The position numbers are program-made. Below are positions 6,001-9,000 of a stretch of 33,304 bases of DNA, in pieces. Every line of letters starts with the position of its first letter. The stretch's first letter is position 1. This DNA is from a virus. Its lineage: Monodnaviria > Loebvirae > Hofneiviricota > Faserviricetes > Tubulavirales > Inoviridae. The stretch is from the IMG/VR virus record IMGVR_UViG_2778261316_000006; one strand, given 5' to 3'.

Positions 6001-9000
6001 CCAGTCAACAGATTTACCGTTTGAATGCAACCGTGGGACACTATTCCTATAGGGTTGAGTAGAAAGCCCTGAAATATAATCATCTTCATTTCCTTTACCA
6101 ACAGATTTATTAGATGTTATATGAAGCTCTTTAATTAATGCCCCGTCAGCAACCATATGAGCTTTTTCAGTCTCTTTAGATTGACCGGGCATTAAACGAG
6201 TGCATTTTGTAAAAGCAGGAAGTTTAAGATCAAGGAGGATCTTATTGAAAACCATAACGCACGCATCAACAGTTGGTAAACCAAACAAATTGTCAAGTCG
6301 CCCCCACCGCGAAGGGTTGCCCGTCATTTTTAGAACAGATCCACGGATAGAGATAGAAACGACATCACAGAAAGATCCCCGGTGCTGGAAGGTTGGTTGA
6401 GACAAAGCACTAGCTTCCCCGCTTTCAAGATGAATGCGCTGATAAGCCACGTCAGAGATTATGGGCAACTGATAGCCAAAATCCTGCTCAATACTCAACC
6501 AATCAAAAAACATAGCATCCATGTATGCAAGAATATTTGGATACCTTATACAACAAAAGAGAACATGCATACAAGAGTGCATCGCCATTTTTATGCAATG
6601 TAACTAACATGCATGAACCCAAAGCAAACAAAGACTCGATTTATGGCTGAAAAAAAATACACGTCCCTACGAGTGCCGGAGGAACGTAAAATGGAACTGG
6701 AGAAAGCTGCTATTGAAGTTAGCTATGCCACCGGGCGCATGGTGAAGTGGACTGACATGGCATTCTATCTAATGGATGAATACCTGAAAGAAGCAGTCAG
6801 GGACTTGAAATCGTCTACAAAAACGTCTCCCGGCGCGGGAAAAAAATGAGACGCTAAGCTATACCGGAACCGTGGGAAACCACGGTAAAGTTCGGGTGTC
6901 ACAGAACCCCGAACCGCTTCGCGGCGAAAAAACGAACAACAGCAGAGCTTGCGAAATCGGAATTAAGATAAGCTGGACGTCAAACGATTAAACAAAAATA
7001 CGCCATTATGCAAAGATCAAATGACACACTCTAAAAGGTATAGGTAATGAATAAAGACCAGATAATACAGGTACTTAATGAAACAGAGAATGACAGCCCC
7101 GTAGCAAGAGCAGAATTAGCAAGATTCATCGTAAAAACAATCTACAATTTTGTAAAAATGGAGAGGCCAGAAGGTGAAGGTCTGGACGGACGTGATGGCC
7201 CAGAAAGGCGCAGCATGGGAAAAATTGTAGATGCGGCAGAAAACCACTACTTTAACATGATAAAAGAAAGCCATGAAAAACAGGGAATTGGAAGAAGAAA
7301 CCCTGAGGAATGACGCCCTAATGCGCATAATGACGTTATGCTAAAGAGGCCGCTGCGGGATTCGATTTTCGCAGCGGCCTTTTCAACATAACGAGTCACA
7401 CATTATGCGCACCAGTGCGCAGATAAGCCAGAAATCAGCCCGTAGACGTCACCACGACATTAGACGGCCATCGCTGGTACGTTCTTTCGTCTTCGACCGT
7501 CAGCCTCCTGGATCGCTTCTGAGAACGCCGGAATGAAAAACAGGCTTTGCAGTGACGGGTATATTATGGCTGACGCCATAACGCTTTCTATGTCCTCGCT
7601 TCGCTGCGGGGCTTCCGGCGCAAAGCGCCTCCCATGCCTGACGGCATAAAAACCGGATATGCCGCCACGTCACCGCCTGTGCGCGTCCGTCGCCACCATC
7701 ACCACGCGCGCTCCTCGTGGGAACTCGGTGCGTGCGTGGCGCTGGCGCGCCTGACCTTTTTCGCCTGTAACACGACGAGAATATCCGTTTTATTCTTCTC
7801 GTCGGACGAACTGGAGAGCCAGCCTTTTGGCAGGAAACTGAATCCGGTATCGGCGTTCGTCACCTTCGATTCGGCCAGACCGCCCAGCAGAATGATATCC
7901 CCGTCAGCCGCTGAGACCTCCGTATTCACTTCGCGCTTAATCAGCGTCGGGCTGTTATTCACGCCCGTATCCGTCTTCGCAAAGCTGGAAAGCTGCTGCT
8001 TAATCACCAGGTCAATGTTGTCAGTACGGATTTGCGGCTTCACGTCCAGAATAACGCCACTTGAGCGGTATTCAATCGACTGAATCGGCCTGTTATCGGC
8101 GTAGCTCACCTGACCCAGCACCGGAACTTCATTACCCACTGAAAACGTGGCTGACGCGCCATCCTTCACCCTGAGCCGCGGAGAACTGACCACATGAAAA
8201 CGGCTGTCCGTCCTGAACAGCTCATACAGCGCATCGAGAGAGCCGGTATTCACCCGAATAAAGTTATCAAAGCCGCCTGATGTACCAATCTGAATATTCA
8301 GCTTGCCGGAAAGCAGCTTCGCCGCCAGTGCCAGCCCTGAGCCGTTACGTTCACTGGTCTGAACCTCAAAAACATAAGCCGCAACAATCACTTCCTCAGA
8401 GGCGGTATCAATCAACGGTAGAAGCGTCTGTAACCGCTTAATTTCTGATTTCCGGCCATAATAAACCAGCACATCCCCAGTACGGTTCATAAAATCCGAT
8501 GCCGTACCCGCTACGGCCGCTTCCGGCGAAATCTGCCCGGACGGCAACGAATTACGCTGGCTGTTAAACTGCCCGGTAAACTGTCCGGCCAGAATATCAG
8601 AAAGGTACGCCACGGAACGGAACCGGGGACGATAAACAAACGTTTCCTGCGGCGGCACGTACGCTTTAGGCGTGAACGGCGCCACGTAATCAATGCCCTG
8701 TTTGTTGTAAATGGCAATATTCATATTGCCAAGATAGCGCTTAATAAATGCCCGTTCATCGATATCCGGCGTGATGCGGAACGTCACCACCTTGTCCGAT
8801 TTGGCAAGCTCCGGGTCAAGCATGAATGGCTTATCAAACACCTGAACGTAAATCATATTCAGCGCCTGCGGAAGCGGCACGGCGTTAAGCTCCAGACTGA
8901 CGCCCTTTGCCATAGCCAGCCCCGGAATCAGTAAAAAAAGTAAAGCTGTAATCAGTTTCATCGTGTCGCCCCTGAATAAACCGTGACCGTCTCGCCGTCG

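What the first reader, a model, noticed from the sequence alone, without database searches (positions are those of the whole stretch)
6850..7046. Hairpin-rich intergenic region in phage A between the RHH-like gene and the 88 aa gene: candidate origin or packaging signal
Three adjacent GC-rich stem-loops (6869..6924), including a 7 bp stem with a GAAA tetraloop, lie in a ~200 bp non-coding stretch and none is followed by a T-run. Ff phages place their packaging signal and replication origins in structured intergenic DNA, although usually between gene IV and gene II; here the structured region sits on the regulator side of pII.
Basis: partly seen in the sequence, partly recalled or inferred. Interest (0 to 1): 0.45.

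Follow-up and report, generated by a model that had tools for sequence, protein, structure and literature searches.

The report
Replication origin of a filamentous prophage
The three small hairpins are very probably the site where this filamentous prophage's replication protein (pII) binds and nicks the DNA to start rolling-circle copying; the kind of element is ordinary, but one amino acid of pII changes in step with one hairpin across more than 100 related phages.

Summary
Three adjacent stem-loops lie at 6869-6924, and an identical copy lies at 14567-14622 in the second tandem prophage. None is followed by a T-run.

They form a 56-nt element on the strand that carries the phage genes (the window's minus strand). 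A covariance model finds it once per genome, upstream of and co-oriented with the If1-type pII gene, in about 180 loci from Enterobacterales, Pasteurellaceae, Aeromonas, Alteromonas and Pseudomonas. It is absent from phage B, M13 and IKe.

- **hp1** (7 bp, 11-nt loop GTTCTGTGACA) is nearly invariant apart from compensatory changes.
- **hp2** (7 bp, loop TTTC) has at least 55 variants that stay paired.
- **pII residue Q343**, at the start of a predicted C-terminal helix, tracks the outer stem of hp2 without exception: ACC with Q/E in 72/72, GGT or AGT with K/R in 44/44, over at least 20 independent switches.

Best reading: this is the plus-strand origin, with hp1 as the nick hairpin and hp2 as the pII-binding palindrome. 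The packaging-signal reading is not supported. It is a new, unannotated member of a known kind. The nick itself was not mapped.

The parts
6890..6914 (-). hp1, the conserved nick hairpin (inferred). Phage strand: GTTCGGG-GTTCTGTGACA-CCCGAAC, loop at 6897-6907. By analogy with f1 the nick would fall near 6898|6897 on the minus strand. The nick was not mapped.
   Evidence: (99.7% paired; one position shows UA/GC/CG/AU). Loop compared with M13 GTTCTTTAAT^A.
6869..6886 (-). hp2, the pII (and probably pX) binding palindrome that sets specificity. Phage strand: ACCGTGG-TTTC-CCACGGT. Its centre lies about 20 nt 3' of the predicted nick.
   Evidence: Covariation in 6 of 7 pairs. At least 55 variants. 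Perfect co-variation with pII residue 343, and co-variation with residue 340.
6887..6889 (-). Near-invariant TTT spacer between hp1 and hp2.
6915..6923 (-). hp0, an accessory mini-hairpin. Phage strand: C-GCGAAGC-G, a G-N-A triloop. It is present or replaced by a compensated equivalent in many lineages and absent in Pasteurellaceae and phiAFP1.
   Evidence: 68% paired, all 3 pairs with double changes. The stability of GCGAAGC is from PMC13037366.
14567..14621 (-). Identical second copy of hp2-hp1-hp0 in the second tandem prophage A.
5398..6588 (-). Gene II, the replication initiator. This is the maximal ORF of 396 aa; the likely start is M26 at 6513. It carries Pfam Phage_CRI and G2P_X_C domains.
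5539..5580 (-). Codons for pII residues 337-350 (LNKKQVQTHRARLR). The predicted recognition helix spans 340-350. K340 and Q343 co-vary with hp2 bases 4-5 and 2-3.
6613..6849 (+). Antisense RHH-like small regulator (phrog_2503; probable start 6643). It belongs to a swappable cassette bounded by hp2 and the start of pII.
6925..7046 (.). The A+T-rich remainder of the intergenic stretch. It is not part of the conserved core. It is presumably the promoter and leader of the 88-aa gene (7047-7313), which was not shown.

Best explanation
The 56-nt element at 6869-6924, read on the minus strand (the phage viral strand), is the plus-strand (double-strand) origin of rolling-circle replication for this If1-type filamentous prophage.

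Proposed mechanism:
1. A pII dimer binds the palindrome hp2 through a C-terminal helix (residues 340-350). Residues 340 and 343 read half-site bases 2-5.
2. This places the catalytic domain on hp1, about 20 nt upstream. hp1 presents the near-invariant loop and 3' arm (..TGTGACA|CCC..) as a stem-loop in supercoiled replicative form, or later on the displaced single strand.
3. pII nicks the viral strand in or next to the hp1 loop. Host polymerase extends the 3' end through the antisense regulator, gene II and the rest of the genome.
4. When hp1 is regenerated, pII cuts and rejoins to release a circular plus strand.

In the integrated tandem array, initiating at the origin at 14567-14622 and terminating at 6869-6924 would release exactly one 7698-nt genome without excision, as described for CTX phage.

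What is shown: the conservation, the structural covariation, the strict linkage and orientation relative to pII, the co-variation between hp2 and pII residues, and the fold similarity of pII to RepDE.

What is inferred: that a nick occurs here, its exact position, the role of hp0, binding of hp2 by pX, and origin-to-origin production from the array.
For: 1. A 55-56-nt island of 100% identity with If1 and with L156, inside otherwise diverged or unalignable DNA.
2. Covariance model R1 gives one hit per genome, always on the pII strand. It gives two hits in the window and none in phage B, M13 or IKe.
3. Covariation: 92.2% of cells paired against 77% in shuffles. 145 cells carry double changes against 43 expected. 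0 of 500 shuffles reach this, and slid registers give 33-48% paired.
4. A DNA-only pattern scan of IMG/VR returned 118 stretches. 114 have this pII family downstream on the same strand, 3 end at a contig edge, and 1 (L092) has only a phage-B-type pII.
5. The element follows pII and not the structural module. In L049 it directly abuts pII with no regulator between them.
6. pII residue 343 co-varies perfectly with the hp2 outer stem in 116 of 116 ACC/GGT/AGT cases, in two clades. Mutual information equals the full class entropy (0.91 and 1.00 bit) against a column median of 0.05-0.07. There are at least 20 independent switches on the pII tree. Pairs of pII differing by 0.8% still differ in both features. 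Residue 340 tracks hp2 bases 4-5.
7. Both residues sit at the N-terminus of predicted helix 340-350.
9. The architecture and position match the f1 and IKe origins, which have two adjacent loops with the nick in the first (PMC11765958). The loop GTTCTGTGACA matches f1 GTTCTTTAATA at 8 of 11 positions.
10. A circular 7,439-bp form of a relative carries the element.
Against: - No nick, replication or binding experiment exists for this element or for If1 in the literature I could search.
- Sequence homology to the mapped Ff and IKe origins is not detectable with the model. The link to them rests on architecture.
- The Ff A+T-rich enhancer domain 3' of the core is missing; a gene abuts instead.
- One genome (L092) carries the element with only a phage-B-type pII.
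- In 38 of 130 relatives hp2 is followed by a T-run and could also act as a terminator.
- hp0 contains a mini-hairpin motif otherwise reported at priming sites for complementary-strand synthesis.
Confidence: 0.85

Rival explanations
1. hp2 is a pII/pX regulatory binding site only, for example for copy-number or transcriptional control. The real nick site would lie elsewhere in the genome.
For: The co-variation shows recognition, not nicking. The C-terminal domain is shared with the putative pX, which in Ff is a replication regulator (established knowledge).
Against: hp1 sits at a fixed 3-nt spacing from hp2. It has a near-invariant loop and 3' arm and compensated stem changes. Its geometry of about 20 nt to the hp2 centre matches the 23 bp between ICRII and ICRIII. 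No second conserved element is linked to pII.
Confidence: 0.05
2. The element is the minus-strand (complementary-strand) origin. On the packaged single strand the hairpins would exclude SSB and expose a priming site, with the conserved CTG in the hp1 loop and the GCGAAGC mini-hairpin, for host primase or RNA polymerase.
For: GCGAAGC-type mini-hairpins occur at G4 and ssiA priming sites (PMC13037366). Most hp1 loops contain CTG. The structure is conserved, as expected for a single-strand signal.
Against: A host-read signal has no reason to co-vary residue for base with pII. It would also not be expected to be absent from phage B, M13 and IKe, which infect the same hosts. CTG is replaced by CAG, CTA or TTA in several lineages. 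hp0 is missing in Pasteurellaceae and phiAFP1. 7415-7698 is a better-structured candidate.
Confidence: 0.04
3. The element is the packaging (morphogenetic) signal recognised by the assembly machinery.
Against: The same element is used by phages with unrelated coat and assembly genes: If1 shares only pII, ssb and the RHH gene, and L102 shares only pII. It is much shorter than the roughly 78-nt Ff signal (established knowledge). It co-varies with pII.
Confidence: 0.03
4. The hairpins are only transcription terminators or insulators between the convergent phage-sense transcripts and the antisense regulator genes.
For: hp2 is followed by a T-run in 38 of 130 relatives. In Pasteurellaceae hp1 is preceded by an A-run, which is a T-run in the regulator sense.
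Against: There is no T-run in the window on either strand. Loop sequences and the spacer are conserved. The element is retained where no regulator is present (L049). It co-varies with pII.
Confidence: 0.03

Closest known systems
Plus-strand origin core of Ff (f1/M13/fd) and IKe filamentous phages
   Same: It lies on the viral strand between gene IV and gene II. It consists of two adjacent stem-loops, the first with a large loop (11 nt, GTTCT..A.A) and the second a short palindrome. The initiator belongs to the same Pfam families (Phage_CRI and G2P_X_C).
   Different: A covariance model detects no sequence homology. There is no A+T-rich enhancer 3' of the core, and an antisense regulator gene abuts hp2. 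An extra G-N-A mini-hairpin lies 5' of the nick hairpin. The second palindrome is hypervariable. The nick is not mapped.
Double-strand origin of pT181-family rolling-circle plasmids (ICRII/ICRIII with RepC/RepD)
   Different: This is a Gram-negative filamentous phage, not a staphylococcal plasmid. Pfam Rep_trans is not significant for this pII. No sequence similarity to solved structures is detected. The C-terminal domains are not shown to be homologous.
CTX phage origin and production from tandem prophages
   Same: The prophages are dif-integrated and tandem. The origin lies on the regulator side of the replication gene. Origin-to-origin rolling-circle synthesis would yield one genome (PMC4246890).
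   Different: CTX uses RstA and a different origin sequence. Production from the array was not tested here.

Membership tests
Filamentous-phage plus-strand origin (Ff/IKe type) | Lies on the viral strand in non-coding DNA upstream of, and co-oriented with, gene II. | tested here: met
   always on the pII strand, 14 to about 1050 nt upstream (2.1 kb in If1).
Filamentous-phage plus-strand origin (Ff/IKe type) | pII nicks the viral strand in the loop of the first hairpin. | not testable with these tools
   Only analogy is available: the loop matches f1 at 8 of 11 positions, and L081 has a partial duplication that starts inside the loop.
Filamentous-phage plus-strand origin (Ff/IKe type) | The adjacent repeat or palindrome is bound specifically by pII. 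| tested here: met
   The evidence is indirect but strong. pII residues 343 and 340 co-vary with hp2 bases, 116 of 116, over at least 20 switches.
Filamentous-phage plus-strand origin (Ff/IKe type) | Sequence homology to the mapped Ff or IKe core. | tested here: not met
   Model R1 gives no hit in M13 or IKe at E <= 1.
Filamentous-phage plus-strand origin (Ff/IKe type) | An A+T-rich replication enhancer (domain B) 3' of the core. | tested here: not met
   The regulator gene's stop codon lies 20 nt from hp2. In L049 the pII start follows hp2 directly.
pT181-type double-strand origin | The initiator has a Rep_trans fold. | tested here: inconclusive
pT181-type double-strand origin | A conserved nick stem-loop plus a variable specificity palindrome about two helical turns downstream, read by a C-terminal domain. 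| tested here: met
   Family features are from PMC4797284.
Intrinsic (rho-independent) terminator | A G+C-rich hairpin immediately followed by a T-run. | tested here: not met
   for the window. The feature is met in only 38 of 130 relatives.
Ff packaging signal | A long imperfect hairpin read by the assembly proteins, so linked to the structural module. | tested here: not met
   The stems are 7 bp. The element follows pII and not the structural genes.
Any Rfam RNA family | A match to a curated covariance model. | tested here: not met
   No hit in 6850-7046. Only chance-level hits appear at 7322-7393.

The most novel reading that the evidence does not exclude
hp2 and the N-terminus of pII helix 340-350 may form a simple, readable specificity code. 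Residue 343 pairs Q/E with ACC, K/R with GGT or AGT, N with ATT or CAT, and D with ACT. Residue 340 pairs K with GT, R with GC or GA, and S with AT or CC. This code has flipped at least 20 times among near-identical initiators. That would create private origins, in effect incompatibility groups, so that related filamentous phages stacked at dif, and their pX regulators, do not cross-fire. The origin would also be the preferred recombination seam at which regulator cassettes are exchanged.
Probability: 0.55. Interest if true: 0.65.

Novelty: new member of a known kind. Interest (0 to 1): 0.5.

Why it matters
It gives a precise, searchable definition of the plus-strand origin for a large clade of If1-like inoviruses. 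These occur in E. coli, Salmonella, Yersinia, Pectobacterium, Haemophilus, Aggregatibacter, Aeromonas, Alteromonas and Pseudomonas, and current annotation leaves this DNA blank.

It explains how tandem dif-integrated copies could yield phage genomes without excision. It identifies the C-terminal G2P_X_C domain, shared with the putative pX, as the likely origin-recognition module. It names the two residues and four base pairs to mutate. That makes origin specificity, cross-mobilisation between co-resident phages and phagemid design directly testable.

Tried and rejected
- **Strand-of-folding test.** I counted G-T against A-C mismatches. The result was inconclusive (hp2 16 against 13), and the A-C cases are simply larger loops.
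- **Looking by eye for clustered pII differences between hp2 classes.** This was uninformative. The column-wise mutual-information test was what worked.
- **Rfam.** Nothing was found in the region.
- **Promoter scan.** It gave no convincing promoter for the 88-aa gene.
- **Literature searches.** I searched for If1 origin, phiAFP1, the UP-phi phages and the element's own sequence. None describes the element.
- **Search of phage B for the element.** It is absent. L092, the one motif hit without the If1-type pII, turned out to be a phage-B-like mosaic.
- **Readings considered and rejected.** The Xer/dif attachment site is at 7314-7420, not here. A CRP site (TGTGA in the loop) was rejected because there is no second half-site.

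Full report
**Context.** The window is an array of filamentous prophages. Positions 1-7414 are identical to 7699-15112, which gives phage A a unit of 7698 bp. From 15022 a second phage, B, repeats with a period of 9145 bp. The phage A genes lie on the minus strand:
- gene II at 6588-5398 (Pfam Phage_CRI and G2P_X_C);
- ssb at 5381-5091;
- coat at 4792-4544;
- pIII at 4479-2596;
- pVI at 2585-2298;
- Zot/pI at 2294-1260;
- the secretin pIV at 8961-7699.

So the minus strand is the viral (+) sense. On the plus strand lie an RHH-like gene (6613-6849) and an 88-aa gene (7047-7313). The finding is the 197 nt between these two.

**Observation.** The three stem-loops exist exactly as described:
- hp2, 6869-6886: 7 bp, with a GAAA loop on the window + strand and TTTC on the phage strand.
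- hp1, 6890-6914: 7 bp with an 11-nt loop.
- hp0, 6915-6923: 3-4 bp with a 3-nt loop.

None has a T-run after it on either strand. Folding the single sequence gives only modest z-scores of -2.0 to -2.8, and hp1 and hp2 are the stems kept in the centroid. An identical copy sits at 14567-14621.

**Relatives.**
- Megablast against phage genomes matched only two things. One is If1 gene II at 76%. The other is a 55-nt island, 6869-6923, that is 100% identical to the If1 'major intergenic region'. The same island is 98% identical over 46 nt to Alteromonas phage phiAFP1.
- In all three phages the island is followed, in phage sense, by an antisense small regulator gene and then by gene II. In If1 that regulator ORF is unannotated.
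- Protein-guided retrieval gave 34 IMG/VR loci and 45 genome loci from Enterobacterales, Pasteurellaceae, Aeromonas, Marinobacterium, Gilliamella and Pseudomonas.
- A covariance model built from 16 sequences finds exactly one hit per locus wherever upstream DNA is present, always on the pII strand. It finds two hits in the window and none in phage B, M13 or IKe.
- A scan of IMG/VR with a DNA pattern alone returned 118 stretches, almost all on 6-9-kb contigs. Of these, 114 carry this pII family downstream on the same strand, 3 end at a contig edge, and 1 (L092) is a phage-B-like mosaic.
- The element stays with pII while the coat and assembly genes are replaced wholesale. In L049 it abuts the pII start with no regulator in between.

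**Structure is under selection.** On the model-guided alignment of 58 distinct rows, 92.2% of cells pair, against 77% in column shuffles and 33-48% in slid registers. Double changes occur in 145 cells, where 43 are expected. None of 500 shuffles reaches this.
- hp1 is 99.7% paired and almost invariant. Its stem exists as GTTCGGG, GTCCGGG, GTACGGG or GTGGGGG, each with the matching 3' arm. The 3' part of its loop, the start of the 3' arm and the TTT spacer are near-constant (..T-N-ACA|CCC..ACTTT). The loop length varies from 10 to 12 nt on the 5' side only.
- hp2 is the opposite. It has at least 55 stem and loop variants among 148 distinct elements, and 130 of the 148 keep a perfect stem of at least 5 bp.
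- hp0 is partly conserved. It is often a G-N-A triloop mini-hairpin (GCGAAGC, GCGGAGC, GCGCAGC, CGCC-GGA-GGCG) or a compensated replacement (CTCA-TCT-TGAG). It is absent in Pasteurellaceae and phiAFP1.

**hp2 is read by pII.** I aligned 126 non-redundant combinations of pII and hp2 and computed, for each protein column, the mutual information with the hp2 class. I did this separately in the two hp1 clades.
- One column, window residue Q343, carries the full class entropy in both clades (0.91 and 1.00 bit). The median column carries 0.05-0.07 bit.
- A 5' arm beginning ACC goes with Q or E in 72 of 72 cases. GGT or AGT goes with K or R in 44 of 44. ATTG and CATG go with N, and ACTG goes with D.
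- On a tree of pII with this segment masked, the class changes at least 20 times. pII pairs that differ at 0.8% of positions still differ in both features.
- Residue 340 tracks bases 4-5: GT with K, GC or GA with R, AT or CC with S, and AC with N.
- The codon for residue 343 is 1.3 kb from hp2, and the intervening pII columns carry little information. A shared recombination block therefore does not explain the link.
- In an AlphaFold model (pLDDT 87.6), residues 340-350 form a helix preceded by helix 316-330 and a loop. Residues 340 and 343 are in its first turn.
- The segment lies in Pfam G2P_X_C. This is the part that in Ff is also made separately as pX. An invariant Met at residue 298, with a weak Shine-Dalgarno sequence upstream, could start a pX here. 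This is an inference.

**What it works like.**
- For that family, the conserved stem-loop ICRII presents the nick. The plasmid-specific palindrome ICRIII is centred 23 bp downstream and is read by a swappable C-terminal helical domain (PMC4797284).
- Here the centre of hp2 lies about 20 nt 3' of the hp1 loop.
- The f1 origin likewise has two adjacent loops with the nick in the first (PMC11765958). M13 reads GAGTCCAC-GTTCTTTAAT^A-GTGGACTC TTG TTCCA-AAC-TGGAA, and IKe is built the same way. The phage A loop GTTCTGTGACA matches the f1 loop at 8 of 11 positions. Beyond that there is no detectable sequence homology.

**Mosaic boundaries.** E. coli and IMG/VR relatives are 98% identical to phage A from 7414 down to 6874. 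They then diverge completely and resume at the start of pII at 6516. The regulator cassette is therefore a swappable unit bounded by hp2. L092 shows the same seam. L081 carries a second copy of the 3' half of hp1 plus a different hp2. That is what aberrant termination at a nick inside the loop would leave, but it is a single metagenome-assembled example.

**Conclusion.** The element is best explained as the plus-strand origin, with hp1 as the nick hairpin, hp2 as the pII-binding specificity palindrome and hp0 as an accessory.
- In the array, synthesis from the origin at 14567-14622 to the one at 6869-6924 would release one 7698-nt genome. This is the CTX-type route (PMC4246890).
- Related arrays occur in E. 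coli PEC148 (at least three copies, with this DNA unannotated). A 7,439-bp circular form occurs in strain A37.
- The rivals each fail on the pII co-variation, or on the linkage to pII rather than to host or structural genes. These rivals are a regulatory site only, a minus-strand origin, a packaging signal and a terminator.
- A secondary terminator role in some relatives is not excluded, since 38 of 130 have a T-run after hp2.
- None of the papers I could search describes the element.
- The kind of element is textbook. The member, its exact definition and the residue-to-base correspondence appear to be new. The nick itself remains to be mapped.

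Noticed in passing
window 7314-7420 (also 15022-15112 and 24167-24257): On the phage strand this stretch folds into an imperfect hairpin of about 100 nt. It is built from two inverted dif-like sites with GGTGCGCATAA arms, like the CTX-type single-stranded attP. The 91 nt at 7324-7414 are shared with the phage B junctions.
   Followed up: partly
window 1-33304: The whole window is a tandem array: two copies of phage A (7698-bp unit, the first cut by the window edge), then two copies of phage B (9145-bp unit). Phage B has a canonical Phage_CRI pII, an HTH repressor and several antisense ORFs, and resembles the published UP-phi layout.
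   Followed up: partly
window 7415-7698: This is strongly structured single-stranded DNA on the phage strand (z = -4.8 for 7314-7698). It includes a promoter-like hairpin at 7590-7563. It is a better candidate than the finding for the minus-strand origin or the packaging signal.
   Followed up: no
window 6826-6842 (minus strand): A terminator-like hairpin with a T-run on the phage strand sits inside the 3' end of the antisense RHH gene, just downstream of the origin.
   Followed up: no
window 6517-6642: The divergent region between pII and the RHH gene carries repeated ATGCAT/TGCAT motifs, which are likely operators. The 396-aa pII ORF probably starts at M26 (6513), as PGAP annotates in E. coli relatives.
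   Followed up: no
window 15533-15576: Phage B has a 21-nt-arm hairpin containing CAGTGACA in its gene IV-proximal intergenic DNA. It is 86% conserved in the phage-B-like contig L092 and may be phage B's own origin or packaging signal. Model R1 does not match it.
   Followed up: partly
L092 2224-2293: A phage-B-like genome (pII 86% identical to phage B) carries a phage-A-type origin element exactly at a mosaic boundary. It is either a remnant or a means of being mobilised by an If1-type pII.
   Followed up: partly
L081 524-620: hp1-hp2 is followed by a second copy of the 3' half of hp1 (TTACACCCGGACTTT) and a different hp2. A 13-nt repeat occurs about 4.5 times just upstream. The contig is from a metagenome bin, so an assembly artefact is possible.
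   Followed up: partly
L001 (If1, NC_001954) 5107-5310: The annotated 'major intergenic region' of If1 contains an unannotated antisense RHH-like ORF (42% identical to the window's) next to the element. Farther on there is coding-looking DNA, separating the element from gene II by 2.1 kb.
   Followed up: partly
L005 500-544 (IMG/VR copy of phage A): The public 7698-bp contig of the same phage differs from the window by a G-to-T change in the hp2 5' arm (ACCGTTG). This breaks one pair.
   Followed up: no
L203 (NZ_CP195780.1, E. coli A37 'plasmid unnamed4'): A 7,439-bp circular record annotated as a plasmid is the replicative form of a related filamentous phage that is also integrated in the same strain's chromosome. 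It carries the element at 5358-5427.
   Followed up: partly
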